From the NCBI GenBank assembly GCA_963704705.1, contig OY969931.1, positions 1,140,001 to 1,172,000 on the forward strand: DNA of 32,000 nt. Reading direction: 5' to 3'. The position numbers were made by a program, and so were the translations under genes. Shown in pieces: positions 1 through 29,506 of this stretch (the first letter of the stretch is position 1; every line of letters starts with the position of its first letter). The notes under the pieces are model-generated. The model had not been told where the DNA came from. It saw only the letters and a program-made list of their open reading frames with translations, and did not search any database. The DNA comes from an uncultured bacterium (lineage in GTDB: Bacteria; Patescibacteriota; Gracilibacteria; UBA1369; PNNO01).

Positions 1-250
1 TAAGAGTAATATGAGTACTTATGTTCAGTTAATTGATGACGACGCAAATAAGACATTAACTTGCATATCAGACGTAAAAGATAAAAAGCCAACTAATGTT
101 GAAAGCGCAAAGAAAATCGGTTTGGAAGTTGCAAAGAAAGCAAAAGAATTAAAAGTTGATACCTGCGTATTTGATCGCAATGGATATAAATATCACGGCT
201 TAGTTAAAGCATTAGCTGATGCTGCTCGTGAAGGAGGACTAAACTTTTAA
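1..250 (+). CDS. rplR: 50S ribosomal protein L18, C-terminal part (5' end off-window)
   Basis: The frame is open from the window edge. The C-terminus VFDRNGYKYHGLVKALADAAREGGLNF matches the conserved L18 C-terminal signature. It lies directly upstream of rpsE, as in spc operons. Confidence 0.9.
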   Translation, partial: KSNMSTYVQLIDDDANKTLTCISDVKDKKPTNVESAKKIGLEVAKKAKELKVDTCVFDRNGYKYHGLVKALADAAREGGLNF

Positions 251-280
251 TTACTAATTACTAATTTCTAATAACTAATT
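251..280 (+). repeat. r-protein operon spacer repeat, copy 1 (TTACTAATTACTAATTTCTAATAACTAATT), upstream of rpsE
   Basis: Near-identical to the spacers at 5967-6004 and 6805-6833. Built from ACTAAT-like units, with stops in all three frames. Confidence 0.85.
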
Positions 281-286
281 ATAGAT

Positions 287-5845: not shown

Positions 5846-5959
5846 ATGAAAGTAAGATCCTCTGTTAAAAAAATATGTGATAAATGCAAAATAATTCGCC
5901 GTGACGGTGTAATTAGAGTTATATGCAAAATTAAAAAACATAAGCAGAGACAGGGATAG
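5846..5959 (+). CDS. rpmJ: 50S ribosomal protein L36
   Basis: Hand-translated 37-aa [40 protein letters not shown] with the L36 zinc ribbon pattern. It is below the ORF-track length cutoff. It lies between infA and rpsM. Confidence 0.9.
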
Positions 5960-5966
5960 ACTATCA

Positions 5967-6004
5967 ATTACTAATTACTAATTTCTAATTACTAATAACT
6001 AATT
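5967..6004 (+). repeat. r-protein operon spacer repeat, copy 2 (one extra TACTAAT unit), abutting the rpsM ATG
   Basis: ATTACTAATTACTAATTTCTAATTACTAATAACTAATT. The first 22 nt after the leading A are identical to copy 1. Confidence 0.85.
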
Positions 6005-6403: not shown

Positions 6404-6799
6404 ATGGCTACAAAAAAAGCTACAACAACTAAGAAAAAAGGTAAAAAAAGAGTAAGCCCTGAATGTAACGCTTACATACAGGCTTCATATAATAATACTA
6501 TTGTTACGATCACTGAACCAACAGGCGATACTATCGCATGGTCTTCAGCAGGTTCAAGCGGCTTTAAAGGCTCAAGAAAAGCAACTCCTTATGCTGCTCA
6601 GGTTGCTGCTGAAAATGCAGTTGAAAAAGCAAAAGCAGCAGGAATCGAAAAAGTTGCTGTATTTGTTAAAGGAGTCGGGCCTGGAAGAGAACAAGCAATA
6701 AGAGGATTAAACGCATCAGGACTTCAGATAATGGCAATCACTGATGTTACACCTGTTCCTCATAATGGTTGCCGTCAGAAAAAACAACGAAGAGTATAA
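6404..6799 (+). CDS. rpsK: 30S ribosomal protein S11
   Basis: [44 protein letters not shown] and the C-terminal [18 protein letters not shown] are S11 signatures. Confidence 0.96.
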
Positions 6800-6804
6800 C
6801 TTCA

Positions 6805-6833
6805 ATTACTAATTACTAATATCTAATAACTTA
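6805..6833 (+). repeat. r-protein operon spacer repeat, copy 3, upstream of rpsD
   Basis: ATTACTAATTACTAATATCTAATAACTTA. It has one mismatch to copy 1 over the core TTACTAATTACTAAT(T/A)TCTAATAACT. Confidence 0.85.
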
Positions 6834-6835
6834 TA

Positions 6836-12336: not shown

Positions 12337-12363
12337 TTTTTTATATTACAAAATGGCTATTAC
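12326..12363. promoter_or_regulatory. Perfect 14-bp inverted repeat (GTAATAGCCATTTT-10 nt-AAAATGGCTATTAC) spanning the start codon and -10-like box of the 573-aa gene
   Basis: One arm contains the ATG plus the first 8 coding nt. The loop contains TAATAT. Confidence 0.6.
12343..12348 (-). promoter_or_regulatory. -10-like TAATAT, 6 nt before the ATG of the 573-aa gene
   Basis: Read directly. It fits the recurrent N6 pattern. Confidence 0.35.
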
Positions 12364-12394: not shown

Positions 12395-12766
12395 CTATCC
12401 ATTAAACTCTTCAAAACCGAATTTCTCGCTCAAATCCGCAAGCATATGTTTTAAACCTTTTATTAAATGATTTAAATCTTCATCTGATAATGCTTCGATA
12501 TTGGGATTTTCCTTGATTTTTTTATGTAATTTCTCGAATTTATCCAAGATATGTTCATGATTTTCAAAAAATTGATCCAATTTATCGCAATATTCCTTTG
12601 CAACACCTATAAAGCATTGCTTGATAGCATCTAAATTTTCCTCAATTTGCATCCATGCCCAAAAAAAATGCTCTTTATCGCGGCTTTCGATTACTCCGAG
12701 CATTTGCTTTATGTTGTCAGCTGCCATATACAGCTTTTGGCGTTCCTGTTTTAATAAATCTTCCAT
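12395..12766 (-). CDS. Orphan 123-aa acidic helical protein
   Basis: Clean ORF immediately upstream of, and co-oriented with, the 573-aa gene. A -10-like TAAAAT lies 6 nt before the ATG. No family was recognised. Confidence 0.6.
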   Translation of the reverse strand: MEDLLKQERQKLYMAADNIKQMLGVIESRDKEHFFWAWMQIEENLDAIKQCFIGVAKEYCDKLDQFFENHEHILDKFEKLHKKIKENPNIEALSDEDLNHLIKGLKHMLADLSEKFGFEEFNG

Positions 12767-12772
12767 ATTTAT

Positions 12773-12778
12773 ATTTTA
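12773..12778 (-). promoter_or_regulatory. -10-like TAAAAT, 6 nt before the ATG of the 123-aa gene
   Basis: Read directly. It fits the recurrent N6 pattern. Confidence 0.4.
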
Positions 12779-12813
12779 ACCAATAAAATTATTTTCTGCC
12801 ACCTCTTATAGTG

Positions 12814-12842
12814 GTGACAAGCTAAAAAATCCATGTTATAAT
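12814..12842 (+). promoter_or_regulatory. Promoter GTGACA-N17-TATAAT with the ATPase ATG exactly 6 nt downstream (leaderless geometry)
   Basis: The hexamers, spacer and distance to the ATG at 12849 were counted base by base. Confidence 0.6.
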
Positions 12843-12848
12843 ATACTA

Positions 12849-15662
12849 ATGGAAACAAAAACAATCGAGCAAATCTATAAAGAATTAAACACATCAGCTG
12901 AAGGGCTAAGTTCTTCTGAAGCTGCTTCGCGTATTGAAAAATATGGTAAAAACGAACTTAAAACAAAAAAGAAAACACCATGGTGGGTTGCGTTTTTAAA
13001 GGAATTTGCAGATTTAATGGTAATTATCCTTATAATTGCCGCTGTTTTTGCTTATTTTGCAGGTGATACAAGAGACGCAGTAGTGATCTTCTTTATAGTA
13101 CTTTTAAATGCAATTATAGGCTACATTCAGGAATATAAAGCTGAAAAAGCAATTGAAGCACTTAAAAAAATGATGGCTCCAAATGCAAGAGTGATAAGAG
13201 GAGGCAAAGAAATTGAGATTAATGCCAAACTTCTAGTTCCGGGTGACATTATTGTTCTTCAGGAAGGGGACAAAATAACTGCCGATGCCAGAGTTATTGA
13301 AGAAAATGAGCTTGAAACACAGGAAGCAACTCTTACAGGCGAATCGACTCCGGTTTCAAAGCATTCAGAGCCCGGCGACCCATCAAACTTAATTTACATG
13401 GGAACAGATGTGGCTCATGGAAGCGGTAAAGCGGTTGTTATTAGTACTGGAATGCAAACCAAGTTCGGAAACATAGCAAAGCTAACTACTCAGACAAAAA
13501 AAGATAAAACCCCTCTTGAAAAAGAATTATTCAAACTTGGTATGTTCGTTGGAAAAATCACTTTGGTAATTTCAGCCATACTTATAGCGGTTGGTATTTT
13601 TATTCAGGGGCAAGACATTATATATGCATTTATATTTGCTGCTTCTGTTGCCGTTGCTGCAGTGCCTGAAGGTCTGCCTGCCACTGTAACCATAGCACTT
13701 GCATTTGGTGTTCAGCGTCTGGCTAAGAAAAAAAGTATTATCAGGCAGCTTTCATCGGTAGAAACTTTAGGTTCAACAACACATATTTGTACAGATAAAA
13801 CAGGCACGCTCACAAAAAATGAAATGACTGTTAAAAAAGTATATTTAAATGAATATGATGCACAGGTTGGCGGAGTGGGTTATATGCCATGGGGAGCGGT
13901 TCTGTTTAAATCAAAAACAAAACATCATTTTTTAATTGGTGATATTGATTCGCAGGAAGAGGAATTTGAAAAGAGAAAAACACAACTTGAAAAAATAAAA
14001 GCAGATGAAAAATCACTTTATGATTCACTTGAGATGTTGGGTACGATTTGCAATCTTTGTAATAATGCAGCACTTACACCTGAAGAGAATGAAAATCATG
14101 AAAGGGTTTATACAATGCTTGGAGATCCCACTGAAGGCGCACTTCTTACATTTGCTCAAAAAATAGGATTTAATCCTGATGAAACAAAAGAGAAATATAA
14201 AAAACTTCATGAGCTGGCTTTTGATTCGGATAGAAAAAGAATGAGTGTGATTATGAAAGATAATAAAACAGAGAAAAATTATGTATTCACAAAGGGCGCT
14301 CCGGATGCGCTTTTGGAAATTTCCAAAAAGATTATGATTAATGGAAGGATTATTAATCTGGATGAAGAAACAAAGAAAAAAATCCTTGAGAAAAATGAAA
14401 ACATGGCAAAACAGGCTTTAAGGGTGATTGGCTTTGCTTATAAAGAAATAGAAAATAAAGATCATTTTTCAATTAAAGAAGACGAGAGTGATTTGGTTTT
14501 TGTAGGATTGGTGGGAATGATTGATCCGCCAAGACGCGATATTAAAAGAGCCATTGTTCTGGCAAAAAAAGCCGGAATTAAAGTTTATATTGTAACCGGA
14601 GATCAGGGTCTTACTGCTGAAGCTATAGCAAAACAAATAGGTCTTGTTAATCATGGAGGCCATGAAATAATAACAGGCAAAGACCTCGCTGCAATGAAAG
14701 ACGAAGATCTGATAAAGATTTTTAAAGATCAGGAAAAAGAAGTTATTTTTGCAAGAACTTCGCCTGAAGACAAGCTTAGAATTGTTTCTTTATTAAAGAG
14801 CTTAGACCATGTTGTTGCTGTGACAGGTGACGGAGTAAATGACGCTCCTGCACTTAAACGTGCTGACATAGGTATTGCGATGGGTTTAACTGGAACAGAT
14901 GTTTCAAAAGAAGCATCTAATATGATACTTGCGGATGACAGCTTCTCAACAATAATTACCGCTGTTCAGGAAGGCCGCACGATTTATGAAAACCTTAAAA
15001 AATTCGTATTCTATATATTTAGTTGTAACACAGGTGAATTGATAGTTGTATTTAGTGCGGTTGTTTTTGCAATACCGGCACCTTTAACTGCAATTCTTAT
15101 TTTATGTGTTGATCTTGGAACAGATGTATTACCTGCGCTTGCGTTGGGTGTTGATCCTCCTGAAAAAGGCATTATGGAACTGCCGCCGCGTAGTCCAAAA
15201 GCTAAGATTATGGATCGCGCATTTATAGGCAGATTCCTTTATTTGGGATTATTCATTGGAGCAATTGTGGTTGGAACATACTTCTGGTCGCTATTTGAAC
15301 AGGGATGGCACTGGGGTGAGCCTCTTGCTGTAACAGATACAATGCATATAAAATCTTCAACATTTGCATTTGCGATTCTGGTATTAATTCAGATGGTTAA
15401 TGCTTATAACTCAAGAAGTTCAGTTAGATCGGTTTTTCAGATGGGATTCTTTAATAATTTATGGCTCTTGGGTTCTGTGGCTATTTCAGTTGCAACGGTT
15501 TACATGCTCGTTGAAGTACCTTTCTTTAATACATGGATTCACACTGCACCACTTGCATGGTATGAATGGCTTGTAATTATAGTCGGCTCATTCGCAATAC
15601 TGGTGGTTGAAGAAATACGTAAATTGGTGGTACGATTACGCATGCGTACAGTTAAATCATAA
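12849..15662 (+). CDS. P-type II (SERCA-like) cation-transporting ATPase, probably Ca2+
   Basis: Motifs include TGES, ICTDKTGTLT (phosphorylation site), TGDGVNDAPALK, the M4 motif PEGLP, M5 NTGE and M6 DLGTD. They resemble the Ca2+-site residues of P2A ATPases. Confidence 0.93.
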   Translation: METKTIEQIYKELNTSAEGLSSSEAASRIEKYGKNELKTKKKTPWWVAFLKEFADLMVIILIIAAVFAYFAGDTRDAVVIFFIVLLNAIIGYIQEYKAEKAIEALKKMMAPNARVIRGGKEIEINAKLLVPGDIIVLQEGDKITADARVIEENELETQEATLTGESTPVSKHSEPGDPSNLIYMGTDVAHGSGKAVVISTGMQTKFGNIAKLTTQTKKDKTPLEKELFKLGMFVGKITLVISAILIAVGIFIQGQDIIYAFIFAASVAVAAVPEGLPATVTIALAFGVQRLAKKKSIIRQLSSVETLGSTTHICTDKTGTLTKNEMTVKKVYLNEYDAQVGGVGYMPWGAVLFKSKTKHHFLIGDIDSQEEEFEKRKTQLEKIKADEKSLYDSLEMLGTICNLCNNAALTPEENENHERVYTMLGDPTEGALLTFAQKIGFNPDETKEKYKKLHELAFDSDRKRMSVIMKDNKTEKNYVFTKGAPDALLEISKKIMINGRIINLDEETKKKILEKNENMAKQALRVIGFAYKEIENKDHFSIKEDESDLVFVGLVGMIDPPRRDIKRAIVLAKKAGIKVYIVTGDQGLTAEAIAKQIGLVNHGGHEIITGKDLAAMKDEDLIKIFKDQEKEVIFARTSPEDKLRIVSLLKSLDHVVAVTGDGVNDAPALKRADIGIAMGLTGTDVSKEASNMILADDSFSTIITAVQEGRTIYENLKKFVFYIFSCNTGELIVVFSAVVFAIPAPLTAILILCVDLGTDVLPALALGVDPPEKGIMELPPRSPKAKIMDRAFIGRFLYLGLFIGAIVVGTYFWSLFEQGWHWGEPLAVTDTMHIKSSTFAFAILVLIQMVNAYNSRSSVRSVFQMGFFNNLWLLGSVAISVATVYMLVEVPFFNTWIHTAPLAWYEWLVIIVGSFAILVVEEIRKLVVRLRMRTVKS

Positions 15663-20482: not shown

Positions 20483-20488
20483 TTGGTT

Positions 20489-20494
20489 AATTTA
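20489..20494 (-). promoter_or_regulatory. -10-like TAAATT, 6 nt before the pyrD ATG
   Basis: Read directly. It would let pyrDKEF be expressed independently of the inserted cassette. Confidence 0.35.
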
Positions 20495-20588
20495 GGGTCC
20501 TTCAGAGACGCAAGTCTCTAGCGAGCAAAAACATATCGCGAGCTTAGCATGAGTCCCGCTAAGCGGGATGAATTCCTTTAATATTTAA

Positions 20589-20633
20589 TCATAAAAGTAG
20601 GAGGCTGACTAGGAAAAGATTTAAGTGTTTCAT
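20589..20633 (-). CDS. Possible 14-aa hydrophobic micro-ORF (MKHLNLFLVSLLLL)
   Basis: Hand translation. GGAGGG lies 5 nt upstream of the ATG. The ORF is very short, so it is only tentative. Confidence 0.25.
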   Translation of the reverse strand: MKHLNLFLVSLLLL

Positions 20634-20643
20634 ATTTGCCCTC

Positions 20644-20781
20644 CTACTTGATGATCCCATACACGATGAGTCCCAGAAGCACTATGCAGAAGACTATAAG
20701 TCTGATGTACAGCCATACTGCTTCGGCATCTTCGATCGCCTTGAGTTCCTCAGGTGTCGGGTTCTCAAACATTTTAAACAC
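20644..20781 (-). CDS. 45-aa single-TM micro-protein (GTG start; 42 aa if ATG at 20772)
   Basis: Hand translation (M)FKMFENPTPEELKAIEDAEAVWLYIRLIVFCIVLLGLIVYGIIK. AGGAGG at 20789-20794 lies 7 nt before the GTG. It is below the ORF-track cutoff. Confidence 0.5.
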   Translation of the reverse strand: MFKMFENPTPEELKAIEDAEAVWLYIRLIVFCIVLLGLIVYGIIK

Positions 20782-20818
20782 TTCGGTTCCTCCTTTCTAG
20801 TCAGCCGTTAGCTGACGT

Positions 20819-20962
20819 TCAAGCGAACAAAACAACGAGATCTGCAACTGCAAGCGCAAAAGCACCATGAACCATGTAGTTCGGATTGCTAAGCGCAACA
20901 ATAGCAGCCCCAAATCCGACAACAAATGCTCCAACGCAAAGTGCTGCCATAAGTTTAGACAA
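20819..20962 (-). CDS. 47-aa two-TM micro-protein (TTG start; 43 aa if ATG at 20950)
   Basis: It is the C-terminal part of the track's 106-aa ORF. AGGGGGG lies 5 nt before the TTG. Sequence: (M)SKLMAALCVGAFVVGFGAAIVALSNPNYMVHGAFALAVADLVVLFA. Confidence 0.45.
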   Translation of the reverse strand: MSKLMAALCVGAFVVGFGAAIVALSNPNYMVHGAFALAVADLVVLFA

Positions 20963-20985
20963 TTTTGCCCCCCTTTTTACAATAT

Positions 20986-21102
20986 CTAGCTCAGGTTGAT
21001 GTTTTGGTAGATGCAGAACCCCACGAACAGAGCCTCTGTTCCTACCATGAAAGCAAAAATCAAAACGTCCCAATGCTTTTGGATCCACTTGCGAGTCGTC
21101 AT
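20986..21102 (-). CDS. 38-aa single-TM micro-protein
   Basis: Verified codon by codon as MTTRKWIQKHWDVLIFAFMVGTEALFVGFCIYQNINLS. GGAGGG at 21110-21115 lies 7 nt before the ATG. It is in a different frame from the track's 106-aa ORF. Confidence 0.5.
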   Translation of the reverse strand: MTTRKWIQKHWDVLIFAFMVGTEALFVGFCIYQNINLS

Positions 21103-21122
21103 TCTGTGTCCCTCCGTTTAAC

Positions 21123-21148
21123 GCCAGCCCTGTTTTCAAAGGACCAGC
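21123..21148 (-). promoter_or_regulatory. Conserved 5'-leader hairpin, copy A (minus strand GCTGGTCCT-TTGAAAAC-AGGGCTGGC), upstream of the 38-aa ORF
   Basis: 26-nt element paralogous to 21685-21710. The stem is kept through G-U wobbles that work only on the minus-strand RNA. Confidence 0.55.
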
Positions 21149-21284
21149 ACTAAAACACTTTGTTTGAAGGTTTGTAGCGCAAAAAACCCTTTAAGGTGAG
21201 TATAGTAAAGTATTTAAAATTTTAAAACAAGTTTTTATTTGGGAATTCGGCTGGCGGGGTTGTTGTGCCGAATTGGAAGGATTC

Positions 21285-21527
21285 TCATGACTTTGGCTTT
21301 AGTGCGATGATGAGAAGATAGATCATGAGACCTATCAATCCCAATGCACAAAGCGATGCACATATTCCGAAAATGATCGAACCCAGAGCAAAGGGCTTGC
21401 CTCCGGCCACGAAACGGTCGGCATCACAGCATGAGAGCATGAGAAGAAAGGTGAGAAGCCCGATGCATGCAAACAGCATCAGTGCTTTTTTGATGGGAGA
21501 GGGCTCGTAAGGTTCAAGTTTCTTCAT
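21285..21527 (-). CDS. 80-aa two-TM micro-protein
   Basis: ORF-track entry with hydrophobic segments ALMLFACIGLLTFLLML and LGSIIFGICASLCALGLIGLMIYLLIIAL. The ATG overlaps the stop of the upstream 46-aa ORF (ATGA). AAGGAA lies upstream. Confidence 0.6.
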   Translation of the reverse strand: MKKLEPYEPSPIKKALMLFACIGLLTFLLMLSCCDADRFVAGGKPFALGSIIFGICASLCALGLIGLMIYLLIIALKPKS

Positions 21528-21664
21528 GGTTTCCTTTCATGTAAGTTTACGTTGCAGCTTGGGGCCTTTAAATCTCCTCTTTCGAGTGAAACCGAGAATC
21601 CCAAGGCCAGCATCAGTGCCATCAGCACGAATGCGAACAACACGAACGCGTTACTTCCCTTCAC
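21524..21664 (-). CDS. 46-aa N-terminally hydrophobic micro-protein (GTG start)
   Basis: Verified codon by codon as (M)KGSNAFVLFAFVLMALMLALGFSVSLERGDLKAPSCNVNLHERKP. GGAGGA at 21671-21676 lies 6 nt before the GTG. It is translationally coupled to the 80-aa ORF. Confidence 0.5.
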   Translation of the reverse strand: MKGSNAFVLFAFVLMALMLALGFSVSLERGDLKAPSCNVNLHERKP

Positions 21665-21684
21665 TTTTTGTCCTCCAATTTTCC

Positions 21685-21710
21685 GCCAGCCTGATTTTCA
21701 AAGGTCTGGC
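21685..21710 (-). promoter_or_regulatory. Conserved 5'-leader hairpin, copy B (minus strand GCCAGACCT-TTGAAAATC-AGGCTGGC), upstream of the 46-aa ORF
   Basis: It has the same position relative to the SD/start as copy A. Confidence 0.55.
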
Positions 21711-21782
21711 TAAATCTGCTTGTTTTGCGATTCTAACCTAATCCTTTGGAAAAGAATTAAAGCACAGGGTAAACAAATTTGC

Positions 21783-21809
21783 AAATAGTCAAATTTTCCC
21801 CGGGGAAAA
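21783..21809. repeat. 27-nt exact repeat AAATAGTCAAATTTTCCCCGGGGAAAA, copy 1, abutting the pyrC stop codon; likely the pyrBC terminator
   Basis: It contains the 16-bp perfect palindrome TTTTCCCCGGGGAAAA. On the minus strand this is followed by TTTGACTATTT. It is identical to 29052-29078. Confidence 0.9.
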
Positions 21810-24012: not shown

Positions 24013-24018
24013 ATTATA
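24013..24018 (-). promoter_or_regulatory. -10 TATAAT, 8 nt before the pyrB ATG
   Basis: Read directly on the minus strand as TATAAT-caagtagc-ATG. Confidence 0.4.
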
Positions 24019-24090: not shown

Positions 24091-24999
24091 ATGTCAGAAA
24101 AATTAATTTTAAATAAACCTAATAAAGCAATTGATTGTATGAAAAGATGGATGGCAATGGATTTTGAACAAATGTCCGACACTGATCATTTTGCTGCATT
24201 CTATGGTTATTGCGAAATGTTAGCTGAAGAACTTGAATCAACACAAGGTATTGATTTAAGTATTATAAAAAATAAATTAAATAAAATGCTGGGTACCTAT
24301 AAAGAATTAATGGACATACGTTACCCTGATGCTATGTCAGGATTAGATTCCAGTTATTCTCATTTTACTCCATTGGAAAGGATTTCAATGCGAAACGAGC
24401 CTATGCTTCTTGAAATTAGTATGAATCAGTTAATGATTGAATTCAAAGAAATTGCTGAAAGACTCCTTGAAATGATTGAAGATGATGAATCCCCTGACAA
24501 AGTATATGATTTCAAAATTCTGGGAGATGATGTTGAGCAACAACTGGAAAGTATTGTAGGAGAAGTTGAATCATTATCAACCATTCCTGATGATGTTGAA
24601 ATGGACAGACTTATTTTTAGAAATTTATACGAGCATACAAGTATTCTTTTACAGCTTATAATTGAAAGAGGTAAATTAATCAGCCTATCACAAGAAGATA
24701 CTGATAAATTCATAGGCATGATAACTGCTATAGAAGAGGTTTTATTTGATGCTGAAATTGATCAAAACCGGCTTAAAGATGGCTACGATGAAATGGCTAA
24801 AGTAGCGCAAACTTTTCTGAATCGAATAAAAGTAACTCCTGAAGAACTTGAAGCAAATCAGACAGAAAGGGACGAATTTAATGATATTGCAGTAGGAAGC
24901 ACTTTGGGCGCGGTAGTCGAAGGAGTACGTGAAAAACTTATGGGCGCTTTGGTATTAATTAAAGGTGATAGACCTAAAGACCCATCCCAAAGTAATTAA
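24091..24999 (+). CDS. Orphan 302-aa highly acidic helical protein
   Basis: Clean ORF with host-like composition. No motif was recognised. Its 3' end overlaps the ugd 3' end by 26 nt (convergent). Confidence 0.6.
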   Translation: MSEKLILNKPNKAIDCMKRWMAMDFEQMSDTDHFAAFYGYCEMLAEELESTQGIDLSIIKNKLNKMLGTYKELMDIRYPDAMSGLDSSYSHFTPLERISMRNEPMLLEISMNQLMIEFKEIAERLLEMIEDDESPDKVYDFKILGDDVEQQLESIVGEVESLSTIPDDVEMDRLIFRNLYEHTSILLQLIIERGKLISLSQEDTDKFIGMITAIEEVLFDAEIDQNRLKDGYDEMAKVAQTFLNRIKVTPEELEANQTERDEFNDIAVGSTLGAVVEGVREKLMGALVLIKGDRPKDPSQSN

Positions 25000-26173: not shown

Positions 26174-26179
26174 ATTTTA
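26174..26179 (-). promoter_or_regulatory. -10-like TAAAAT, 6 nt before the ugd ATG
   Basis: Read directly. Confidence 0.4.
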
Positions 26180-26230
26180 CAACATTTTTTATACTTGCGT
26201 AAGTATATGTGTTTTATATAGAATCAATCA

Positions 26231-27900: not shown

Positions 27901-27909
27901 ATAATATCA
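27901..27909 (-). promoter_or_regulatory. Extended -10 TGaTATTAT, 6 nt before the ATG of the ICMT-like gene
   Basis: Read directly. It lies between the ncRNA terminator and the ORF. Confidence 0.45.
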
Positions 27910-28414: not shown

Positions 28415-28671
28415 AAATATAGGTAGGACATGTGTGGGAAATATGTTTTAGTTTTTTGAGTACAAGCTGACTTAGATGGCTTGGAAAAGGATGTTGGCGC
28501 GATTGCAGGCCTCTATATTCAAGCTGTATTTTTATCTAATTTTAATTTTTGGATGGAGTGCTATTTAGGTGAGTATCCGTACACCATTTATCTCAAAAAG
28601 TCCAGTTAAAATGCTGGAAATTGCTTTGCAATTTTAGTATTATTTAAGTGCGAATATTAACAAATACAAAT

Positions 28672-29469
28672 ATGACTGATAAAGAGTTATTTAAATTATG
28701 TCAGGAGTATGGCGCAAAAGCACGCATGTGGAAGAACAAATTTATTGCCTTGCTTCCGGAGGTGTATAAAAGGCGATTGTATAAAAAGCGCGGTTATGGA
28801 TCGATTTTTGAGTTTGCTGCAAAGCTTGGAGGAGTTAGTAAAAATGTAGTTGAAGATGTTTTGCGATTGGATGTGCAATTTGAAGATAAACCAAAACTTA
28901 AAGCTTTAATTCCAGAAATTGGTGTGAGCAAGTTAAAAACTATTGCTTCTGTTGCAAGCATTGAAACAGAAAATCTTTGGGCTAAAAAAATCCAAACAAT
29001 GTCCAGGGCAGCAATAGAAACAGAAATTAGAGATCAAAAAAATAATGTAGAAAATAGTCAAATTTTCCCCGGGGAAAATTTTGAAACATTCACTGCGAAG
29101 CTTTCTCCAAGAACAATCCAAAGACTAAAAATCATTAAAGTTAAAATGGGGCAAGGCACAACATGGGAAGAAGTTTTTTGTAAGCTTGCGGGCCTTGCGA
29201 CCCCTGAGCCAAAACGCGAATACAAGCAGAGGCCAAGCAAATCGCGGGCCGTGCCTGCCAAACAAAAACGAGAACTTCCTGAAATTTGCGAAATTCCCGG
29301 CTGCAACAAGCCGGCCGAAGAAATCCATCATAAAAAACCATGGGCAATATTTAAAAAACACGACAAGCTTAAAGCTCTGTGCAAAGCCCATCATGAGCTT
29401 GAACATCAGGGCGACACAGTGATCGACAAAAAATATAGGGCCTATAAATGGCAGGCCGCATTATTATGA
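28672..29469 (+). CDS. HNH endonuclease with DUF222-like helical N-terminal domain
   Basis: C-terminal HNH/zinc motif CEIPGCNKPAEEIHHKKPW...LCKAHHELEH. The N-terminal pattern (YKRRLYKKRGYGSIFEFAAKLGGVSKNVVEDVLRL...LIPEIGVSKLKTI) resembles DUF222-HNH proteins. The track start at 28648 is GTG, so the ATG at 28672 is preferred. Confidence 0.85.
   Translation: MTDKELFKLCQEYGAKARMWKNKFIALLPEVYKRRLYKKRGYGSIFEFAAKLGGVSKNVVEDVLRLDVQFEDKPKLKALIPEIGVSKLKTIASVASIETENLWAKKIQTMSRAAIETEIRDQKNNVENSQIFPGENFETFTAKLSPRTIQRLKIIKVKMGQGTTWEEVFCKLAGLATPEPKREYKQRPSKSRAVPAKQKRELPEICEIPGCNKPAEEIHHKKPWAIFKKHDKLKALCKAHHELEHQGDTVIDKKYRAYKWQAALL
29052..29078. repeat. 27-nt exact repeat, copy 2, inside the HNH ORF (encodes NSQIFPGE)
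   Basis: Identical to 21783-21809. The palindrome is followed by TTTTG on the plus strand, giving an intragenic terminator-like hairpin. Confidence 0.9.
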
Positions 29470-29500: not shown

Positions 29501-29506
29501 TATTAT
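29501..29506 (+). promoter_or_regulatory. -10-like TATTAT, 6 nt before the dinG ATG
   Basis: Read directly as TATTAT-gacttc-ATG. Confidence 0.4.

What the first reader, a model, noticed from the sequence alone, without database searches (positions are those of the whole stretch)
12767..12851. Recurrent -10 box exactly 6 nt upstream of start codons: widespread leaderless, SD-less gene expression
Seven transcription-unit-leading genes show a TAnnnT-type hexamer followed by exactly 6 nt and then ATG. They are the ATPase (GTGACA-N17-TATAAT-atacta-ATG 12849) and the 123-aa gene (TAAAAT-ataaat-ATG 12766). Next come the 573-aa gene (TAATAT-aaaaaa-ATG 12336) and pyrD (TAAATT-aaccaa-ATG 20482). The last three are ugd (TAAAAT-tcaaac-ATG 26167), the ICMT-like gene (TGaTATTAT-catgtc-ATG 27894) and dinG (TATTAT-gacttc-ATG 29513). 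pyrB has TATAAT-N8-ATG. This spacing places +1 on the A of the AUG. Internal operon genes also lack SD motifs. Caveat: AT-rich spacers make such hexamers fairly likely by chance.
Basis: partly seen in the sequence, partly recalled or inferred. Interest (0 to 1): 0.6.

Follow-up and report, generated by a model that had tools for sequence, protein, structure and literature searches.

The report
Minority leaderless genes, SD-less CPR genome
In this ultra-small uncultured bacterium (Peregrinibacteria, CPR) a small but real set of genes has its promoter placed so that the mRNA should begin exactly at the start codon. Almost no gene has a classical ribosome-binding site, and most genes have very short leaders, so leaderless expression is real here but not widespread.

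Summary
All seven -10-box/N6/ATG arrangements are in the sequence as described.

**Enrichment.**
- TANNNT starting at -12 precedes 12.7% of 749 operon-leading genes. Other in-frame offsets give 4.5% (p about 6e-19).
- A promoter matrix trained only on leadered promoters gives about 292 strong sites at -44..-26, almost none at -25..-16, and a spike of 26 exactly at -12.
- These sites carry the -35 TTG, the TG extension and a pyrimidine at -1.
- Predicted leaders are therefore either 0 nt or at least 14 nt.

**Scale.**
- Leaderless genes are a minority, about 35-50 genes. That is 3-4% of genes and about 8% of strong promoters.
- This window is the most enriched in the genome, so "widespread" is overstated.
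- Of the seven cases, three are strong (ATPase, 123-aa gene, ugd), two moderate (dinG, ICMT-like) and two probably chance (573-aa gene, pyrD).

**Shine-Dalgarno (SD) use.** SD-lessness holds genome-wide: 2-5% of genes have an SD core, against 45-48% in E. coli. The 16S anti-SD is intact.

**Relatives.**
- The -12 peak recurs in a congener and in three distant CPR genomes.
- The ATPase became leaderless through a 15-nt difference that removes the leader.

No transcription-start data could be obtained. The mechanism is known, and this scan has already noted leaderless genes in other CPR genomes. Verdict: new member of a known kind.

The parts
12767..12848 (.). 82-bp divergent intergenic region holding two back-to-back promoters, each with its -10 box 6 nt from an ATG
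   Evidence: The arms 12761-12780 and 12835-12854 form a 20-nt, 80% complementary inverted repeat.
12814..12819 (+). -35-like hexamer GTGACA of the ATPase promoter, 17 nt before the -10 box
   Evidence: Sequence. Homologous to cTGACA in the congener G001.
12834..12842 (+). Extended -10 element TGtTATAAT of the ATPase promoter. The predicted +1 is the A of ATG 12849.
   Evidence: Full promoter score 8.4 bits at N6; only 0.25% of control offsets exceed 6 bits.
12849..15662 (+). P-type cation ATPase gene, predicted leaderless
   Evidence: Pfam Cation_ATPase_N aligns from residue 3. Orthologues in 10 or more relatives share this start but have leaders.
12773..12778 (-). -10 box TAAAAT of the 123-aa gene, 6 nt before ATG 12766
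   Evidence: Promoter score 9.1 bits at N6.
12395..12766 (-). 123-aa gene of unknown function, predicted leaderless
   Evidence: (no Pfam family).
26174..26179 (-). -10 box TAAAAT of ugd (ATG 26167), predicted leaderless
   Evidence: Score 7.6 bits. The N6 arrangement is kept in the congener G004 with a different hexamer, TATTAT.
29501..29506 (+). -10 box TATTAT of dinG (ATG 29513) with TTGCTA 17 nt upstream; moderate candidate
   Evidence: Score 5.5 bits, above the 99.5th percentile of control offsets. The exonuclease domain starts at residue 4.
27901..27906 (-). -10 box TATTAT (with TGa extension) of the ICMT/PEMT-like gene (ATG 27894); moderate candidate
   Evidence: Score 3.0 bits. The G004 orthologue is leadered.
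12343..12348 (-). TAATAT 6 nt before ATG 12336 (573-aa gene); probably a chance match
   Evidence: N6 score -10.8, against +14.4 for a promoter whose hexamer starts at -31.
20489..20494 (-). TAAATT 6 nt before pyrD ATG 20482; probably a chance match
   Evidence: N6 score -13.3. pyrD lies inside the operon pyrB-pyrC-[island]-pyrD-pyrK-pyrE-pyrF.
26219..26224 (+).
   Evidence: N6 score -0.9.
24013..24018 (-). TATAAT 8 nt before pyrB ATG 24004; predicts a 1-2 nt leader
   Evidence: Sequence. Confirmed as pyrB by Pfam, with the domain starting at residue 2.

Best explanation
The organism is a Peregrinibacteria (CPR/Patescibacteria) with a 1.37-Mb, 35.5% G+C genome. Its housekeeping RNA polymerase uses a canonical sigma-70-type promoter: TTGACA, a 17-nt spacer, then TGnTATAAT.

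**Two classes of promoter placement**
- In most transcription units this promoter lies so that the mRNA has a short, A-rich, G-poor leader of about 14-32 nt without a Shine-Dalgarno (SD) sequence.
- In a minority the same promoter sits with its -10 hexamer at -12..-7 from the ATG. This class is about 35-50 genes, or about 8% of strong promoters.
- For that minority, transcription should start on the A of the AUG and give a leaderless mRNA. Such an mRNA would be translated through its 5'-terminal AUG, as shown experimentally in other bacteria.
- Leaders of 1-13 nt are avoided.

**Turnover**
- Genes switch between the two states by small indels. The ATPase of this window has the same promoter as its congener but lacks the congener's 15-nt leader.

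**Status of each step**
- Shown: the motifs, their positional statistics, their promoter flanks, the lack of SD, the intact anti-SD, the recurrence in relatives and the 15-nt difference.
- Inferred: the actual transcription start sites and the mode of ribosome loading.
For: 1. Positional peak: 95/749 leading genes at -12 against 34 expected at in-frame offsets (p 6e-19). TGnTANNNT at -15 occurs 17 times against a mean of 1.4 per other offset.
2. Gene-call-free test: the N6 spacing alone is enriched for first-ATG-of-long-ORF.
3. N6 hexamers carry T-35 (46%), T-34 (53%), G-33 (34%), T-15 (48%), G-14 (26%) and a pyrimidine at -1 (80%). Their flank score exceeds that of control-offset hexamers (p 1.6e-5).
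4. The matrix trained only on -45..-22 gives about 292 sites at -44..-26, 0-4 per position at -25..-16, and 26 at -12. About 1.9 are expected at -12 from control offsets.
5. The peak is stronger for divergently oriented genes (15.6%) than for operon-internal genes (7.5%; Fisher p 2.5e-4).
6. Independent genome of the same genus: 36/277 against 12 expected (p 6e-9). Orthologue pairs share the N6 state (odds ratio 8.3, p 0.0013), sometimes with a changed hexamer and diverged flanks.
7. The same spike appears in G007 and G013 by matrix. The peak appears in three distant CPR genomes: 15.2%, 9.2% and 14.5% against 3.6-4.9%.
8. E. coli control: no peak, and SD cores in 45-48% of genes.
9. SD cores are found in 5.1% of leading and 2.0% of internal genes. 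The anti-SD is present.
10. The ATPase promoter is homologous in G000 and G001, and a 15-nt leader is present only in G001. In a second gene (1-based genome coordinate 727558) the same TATAAT is followed by 6 nt before the ATG in G000 and by 24 nt in G004.
Against: - No 5'-end data exist.
- Plain TANNNT at -12 also occurs in 7.5-8% of operon-internal genes, because of a position-specific A/T-rich context. Many individual N6 matches are therefore not promoters.
- Start codons come from my own first-ATG rule. Only some were checked against domain boundaries.
- Some N6 genes may also be transcribed from upstream promoters.
Confidence: 0.8

Rival explanations
1. All N6 hexamers are chance products of A/T-rich upstream sequence, of in-frame TAA/TAG stops, or of a non-SD translational context. 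No gene is leaderless.
For: Internal genes show TANNNT at 6-8% for offsets -15..-12. The third hexamer base is A in 68% of N6 hits, as TAA stops would give. Two of the seven window cases score as chance.
Against: - Other in-frame offsets give 4.5% against 12.7%.
- The -35 element, the TG extension and the pyrimidine at -1 accompany N6 hits.
- A matrix trained elsewhere spikes only at -12, with 26 sites against about 2 expected.
- The state is conserved in orthologues of a congener.
- There is no peak in E. coli.
Confidence: 0.04
2. The N6 promoters are real, but they are secondary or weak. These genes are mainly expressed from upstream promoters as leadered or operon-internal mRNAs, so leaderless translation contributes little.
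For: dinG lies 43 nt behind a co-oriented gene. 9 of the matrix hits at N6 belong to genes less than 40 nt behind a co-oriented neighbour. One N6 gene (1-based genome coordinate 596989) has a conserved upstream TATAAT as well.
Against: For the strongest cases (ATPase, 123-aa gene, ugd) the 63-82 bp divergent spacers hold no better-scoring promoter. Enrichment is greatest for divergent genes, which cannot be read through from an upstream gene.
Confidence: 0.12
3. Leaderless initiation is the dominant mode. My analysis undercounts it because many promoters deviate from TANNNT or because starts are miscalled.
For: Pyrimidine at -1 is common in all leading genes (64%). Earlier notes of this scan report a third to a half of genes as leaderless in other CPR lineages.
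Against: About 292 strong canonical promoters lie at -44..-26, against 26 at -12. The hump shows no 3-nt periodicity, so it is not made of miscalled starts. T at -1 is just as frequent (55-57%) in operon-internal genes, which cannot be leaderless.
Confidence: 0.04

Closest known systems
TA-led (leaderless) genes of bacteria, as defined by Zheng et al. 2011 (PMC3160421), and GeneMarkS-2 'group C' genomes (Lomsadze et al. 2018, PMC6028130). Examples are Mycobacterium, Streptomyces and Deinococcus.
   Same: - A TANNNT Pribnow box whose first T lies about 12 nt before the start codon.
- Restriction to first genes of operons.
- Turnover of the state between orthologues with phylogenetic distance.
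   Different: - The class is small here, about 8% of strong promoters. Group C genomes have 25-50% of operons leaderless, and D. deserti has 47-60% (PMC4007540).
- The genome is low-GC.
- The remaining genes use no SD at all, whereas leadered genes in Actinobacteria do.
Non-SD genomes of the Bacteroidetes type (GeneMarkS-2 'group B'; 'atypical genes' of Zheng et al. 2011)
   Same: - SD cores are absent before nearly all genes, internal operon genes included.
- The anti-SD is retained.
- A weak A/T-rich, G-depleted, position-specific context precedes all genes: T at -15/-14, A at -13..-11, A at -3.
   Different: - The phylum is different (CPR).
- A distinct leaderless class is superimposed.
- Whether the anti-SD is sequestered, as reported for Flavobacterium ribosomes (from my own knowledge, not checked here), is unknown.
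Leaderless-rich CPR genomes noted earlier in this scan (Paceibacteria, Kaiserbacteria and others)
   Same: The phylum is the same and the promoter sits on the start codon. My own sampling of three distant CPR genomes also shows the -12 peak.
   Different: Those notes report a third to a half of genes as leaderless. This Peregrinibacteria lineage has only a few per cent and relies on short leaders instead.

Membership tests
Leaderless (TA-led) bacterial genes | A -10 box TANNNT at a fixed position, with its first T about 12 nt before the start codon, enriched over other positions | tested here: met
   12.7% against 4.5%, p 6e-19. The gene-call-free test singles out the N6 spacing.
Leaderless (TA-led) bacterial genes | The hexamer is part of a complete promoter (-35 at about 17 bp and/or a TG extension) | tested here: met
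Leaderless (TA-led) bacterial genes | The transcript 5' end is mapped at, or within about 5 nt of, the start codon | not testable with these tools
Leaderless (TA-led) bacterial genes | The ATG behind the hexamer is the true translation start | tested here: met
   For the named genes, Pfam domains begin at residues 1-7, and the ATPase N-terminus aligns with its orthologues. This was not checked genome-wide.
GeneMarkS-2 group C genome (frequent leaderless transcription) | A substantial share of operons is leaderless (25-50% in group C, PMC6028130) | tested here: not met
   About 8% of strong promoters (26 of about 318) and 37-50 of 1217 genes.
Non-SD ('group B'-like) genome | No SD consensus before genes, internal operon genes included | tested here: met
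   SD 4-mers in 5.1% of leading and 2.0% of internal genes, against 9.5% in coding sequence. E. coli gives 45-48% by the same measure.
Non-SD ('group B'-like) genome | A non-SD motif at a fixed short distance before all genes | tested here: inconclusive
   A weak context (T -15/-14, A -13..-11, C -11..-9, A -3, T -1) is shared by internal and leading genes. No sharp motif was defined.
Non-SD ('group B'-like) genome | Anti-SD retained in 16S rRNA | tested here: met
   The 16S 3' end reads ...GGACCACCTCCTTTCT.

The most novel reading that the evidence does not exclude
Peregrinibacteria, and perhaps CPR bacteria in general, may initiate translation without any SD pairing although the anti-SD is intact.
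- They would accept either a 0-nt leader or an unstructured A-rich leader of at least 14 nt as equivalent substrates.
- Leaders of 1-13 nt would be selected against.
- Genes would flip between the two states by single small indels, as the ATPase did.

This would point to one default loading mode for both mRNA types, for example 70S or 5'-end-dependent loading, in a reduced ribosome.
Probability: 0.25. Interest if true: 0.6.

Novelty: new member of a known kind. Interest (0 to 1): 0.38.

Why it matters
**Annotation.** Gene callers that expect an SD site will misplace starts in these genomes. The rule '0 nt or at least 14 nt of leader, no SD' can guide start prediction in Peregrinibacteria.

**Biology.** The result adds a CPR lineage to the bacteria with leaderless mRNAs. 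It also shows that the share differs strongly within the phylum: a few per cent here, against a third to a half reported by this scan for other CPR groups.

**Evolution.** The ATPase pair, with the same promoter and a leader of 0 or 15 nt, is a natural experiment on leader loss.

The mechanism itself is well known, so the finding is of modest general interest.

Tried and rejected
- **In-frame stop artefact.** Rejected, because the other in-frame offsets show no peak.
- **Miscalled starts as the source of the -26..-39 hump.** Rejected, because the hump has no 3-nt periodicity.
- **Loss of the anti-SD as the cause of SD-lessness.** Rejected.
- **Missing bS21 or bS1.** Tsurumaki et al. 2022 (PMC9297842) report frequent bS21 loss in this clade. 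Both proteins are present here: bS21 at 28.6 bits, just above the cut-off, and a four-domain bS1. In a phylum sample, 51 of 61 genomes (G000 included) had a bS21 match. No link to the finding emerged.
- **Rfam scan of the window.** No RNA family was found.
- **Literature.** Searches for leaderless together with CPR or Patescibacteria found no paper describing this.
- **Conservation of the ATPase N6 arrangement.** Not conserved; all examined orthologues are leadered.
- **Function of the 123-aa and 573-aa proteins.** Neither has a Pfam family, and they were not pursued.
Full report
**What the DNA is.**
- The window lies at 1,140,001-1,172,000 of a single 1,374,545-bp contig with 35.5% G+C.
- The genome reads open under table 11. 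My own greedy ORF caller (first ATG of each long ORF) gives about 1,220 genes covering 90% of the sequence.
They are a P-type cation ATPase, pyrD, ugd, a PEMT/ICMT-like methyltransferase, a DinG-like exonuclease-helicase and pyrB.
- The Pfam domains start at residues 1-7, which supports the start codons.

**The observation.**
pyrB has TATAAT-N8-ATG.
- Three more N6 matches were not listed: carA 26231, the gene at 24091 and rplM 8943.

**Is it more than chance?**
- Among 749 genes with at least 40 nt of upstream spacer, TANNNT starts at -12 in 95 (12.7%).
- The in-frame offsets -6, -9, -15, -18, -21 and -24 control for the stop codon that must close the frame. They average 34 (4.5%), giving a binomial p of 6e-19. 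Shuffling the 30 upstream bases gives z = 8.9.
- TGnTANNNT starts at -15 in 17 genes, against a mean of 1.4 at other offsets.
- A test that uses no gene calls agrees. Of all genomic TANNNT-N6-ATG, 13.9% are the first ATG of an ORF of at least 100 codons. Spacers of 2-13 nt give 2-7.5%. For TAWAAT the figures are 32.5% against 18% or less.
- The same pipeline on 300 kb of E. coli K-12 gives no peak (2 of 152, with 2.2 expected).

**Are the N6 hexamers promoters?**
- The 94 N6 hits of the first gene set (95 after the gene calls were redone) show T at -35 (46%), T at -34 (53%), G at -33 (34%), T at -15 (48%) and G at -14 (26%). They have a pyrimidine at -1 in 80%, with G in 2%.
- Promoters of leadered genes have the same architecture, with consensus TTGACA-N17-TGnTATAAT.
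- The flank score of N6 hits exceeds that of TANNNT at control offsets (p 1.6e-5).
- The clearest result comes from a 30-column matrix trained only on sites at -45..-22. Sites above 6 bits number about 292 at -44..-26 and 0-4 per position at -25..-16. There are 26 at exactly -12, with 0-3 at its neighbours, and 8 at -15.
- At control offsets only 0.25% of positions exceed 6 bits, so about 1.9 are expected at -12.
- With the usual 7 nt from the hexamer end to +1, predicted leaders are 0 nt (sometimes 3 nt) or 14-32 nt. Leaders of 1-13 nt are almost absent.

**How common is it?**
- Operon-internal genes cannot be leaderless, yet they carry TANNNT at 6-8% for offsets -15..-12. A position-specific context common to all genes causes this: T at -15/-14, A at -13..-11, C at -11..-9, almost no G, A at -3 and T at -1.
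- Against that background the excess in leading genes is about 40 (Fisher p 0.005). For divergently oriented genes the rate is 15.6% against 7.5% (p 2.5e-4).
- By matrix score, 37 genes exceed 6 bits at N6, 50 exceed 3 bits and 70 exceed 0 bits. About 20 are expected above 0 bits.
- My estimate is 35-50 leaderless genes. That is 3-4% of genes and about 8% of strong promoters.
It has 10 of 22 leading genes with an N6 hexamer (the overlapping 32-kb scan finds 10 of 25), and outside it and its overlapping neighbour the most is 5. The chance of this is P = 1.6e-4 for the one window. 'Widespread' therefore came from an outlier.

**The seven cases, graded by matrix score.**

| Grade | Gene | Score at N6 (bits) | Note |
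|---|---|---|---|
| Strong | 123-aa gene | 9.1 | |
| Strong | ATPase | 8.4 | |
| Strong | ugd | 7.6 | N6 state kept in congener G004 with a different hexamer |
| Moderate | dinG | 5.5 | |
| Moderate | ICMT-like gene | 3.0 | |
| Probably chance | 573-aa gene | -10.8 | a 14.4-bit promoter starts at -31 |
| Probably chance | pyrD | -13.3 | operon-internal |

pyrD sits inside pyrB-pyrC-[1.3-kb island]-pyrD-pyrK-pyrE-pyrF.

**Shine-Dalgarno (SD) use.**
- A four-base SD core occurs at -20..-5 in 5.1% of leading genes and 2.0% of internal genes. It occurs in 9.5% of equal-sized coding stretches.
- E. coli scores 45-48% by the same measure.
- The 16S rRNA ends in ...CACCUCCUUUCU, so the anti-SD is intact.
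- bS21 and a four-domain bS1 are encoded.
- A few micro-ORFs in the GC-richer island do have GGAGG before the ATG.

**Relatives.**
- A genome of the same genus (G004, 535 kb sampled) repeats the peak: 36 of 277 against 12 expected (p 6e-9).
- Among 109 orthologue pairs that are leading genes in both genomes and whose N-terminal alignments begin at the same residue, the N6 state is shared more often than chance allows. 7 of 16 G000-positive genes are also positive in G004, against 8 of 93 G000-negative genes (odds ratio 8.3, p 0.0013). In several pairs the flanks or the hexamer itself have diverged.
- Another genus of the family (G007) and another family of the order (G013) show only weak TANNNT peaks. 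By matrix they show the same pattern of hump, gap and spike at -12. Both are equally poor in SD.
- Three distant CPR genomes chosen only for being single contigs also show the -12 peak: 15.2%, 9.2% and 14.5%, against 3.6-4.9% at control offsets. Their SD use is higher, up to 45% of internal genes.
- The leaderless class is therefore a CPR-wide habit of varying size. Near-total SD-lessness belongs to this order.

**Turnover.**
- ATPase orthologues in ten or more relatives share the start codon. Their TGnTATAAT lies further upstream, predicting leaders of roughly 15-35 nt.
- In congener G001 the promoter is plainly homologous to that of G000, but 15 nt (aattaaaaataaaaa) stand between the predicted +1 and the ATG. 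In G000 the ATG follows directly.
- A second gene (1-based genome coordinate 727558) shows the same TATAAT followed by 6 nt before the ATG in G000 and by 24 nt in G004.
- Zheng et al. 2011 described such switching between orthologues as a function of distance (PMC3160421).

**Mechanism.**
- Most likely, sigma-70-type holoenzyme starts on the A of the ATG in the N6 class. The 5'-terminal AUG then recruits the ribosome without a leader, as established in Actinobacteria, Deinococcus and E. coli model mRNAs (PMC4633059 and PMC4007540, listed).
- All other genes rely on short, unstructured, A-rich leaders without SD pairing.
- The start sites and the ribosome loading mode are inferred, because no RNA data could be obtained.

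**Novelty.**
- The TANNNT-at-12 signature is exactly the 'TA-led gene' of Zheng et al. 2011 and the group C model of GeneMarkS-2 (PMC6028130).
- This genome fails the group C criterion of abundance. It is better described as a non-SD genome with a small leaderless class.
- I found no paper describing leaderless genes in CPR.
- This scan has already reported leaderless genes in other CPR genomes, and other first readers noted them in other windows of this genome.
- Verdict: a real feature, a new member of a known kind, of modest interest.

Noticed in passing
window 241-285, 5958-6004, 6796-6835; also 1-based genome coordinates 1339183 (+) and 183129 (-): A conserved leader element, caATTACTAATTACTAAT(t/a)TCTAAT, occurs five times in the genome. 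In all three window copies it lies 28-35 nt before an ATG, and two of these are small genes in the ribosomal-protein cluster (starts 6005 and 6836). For the two copies outside the window the gene caller found no called start within 200 nt. It is not a promoter by matrix score. It could be a translational or regulatory leader.
   Followed up: partly
window 12761-12780 and 12835-12854: The two divergent leaderless promoter-start units are near mirror images (20 nt, 80% complementary). Both genes begin with ATGGAA.
   Followed up: partly
genome-wide, positions -15..-1 before start codons: All genes, operon-internal ones included, share a weak position-specific context: T at -15/-14, A at -13..-11, C at -11..-9, G at 0-6%, A at -3 and T at -1. 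This may be a non-SD initiation signal like that of Bacteroidetes.
   Followed up: partly
genome-wide; predicted leader lengths: Strong promoters are almost absent at hexamer offsets -25..-16, so leaders of 1-13 nt seem to be avoided. The same gap is seen in G004, G007 and G013.
   Followed up: partly
window 20504-20519 (minus strand): A perfect 6-bp hairpin, AGAGAC-TTGC-GTCTCT, lies 22-37 nt upstream of pyrD at the edge of the 1.3-kb island that splits the pyr operon. No T-run follows it.
   Followed up: no
window 20483-21809: The GC-richer island inside the pyr operon holds micro-ORFs, some preceded by GGAGG (for example 21100-21115, minus strand). They are the rare SD users in an SD-less genome. 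An earlier report of this scan had already covered the island.
   Followed up: partly
window 28600-28671: The 265-aa gene at 28672, which has no Pfam family, has one of the best leadered promoters of the window (11.6 bits, hexamer starting at -34).
   Followed up: no
L181-L240 (G033, G074, G083): Three distant CPR genomes differ widely in SD use: 7-45% of internal genes carry an SD core. All three show the -12 promoter peak.
   Followed up: partly
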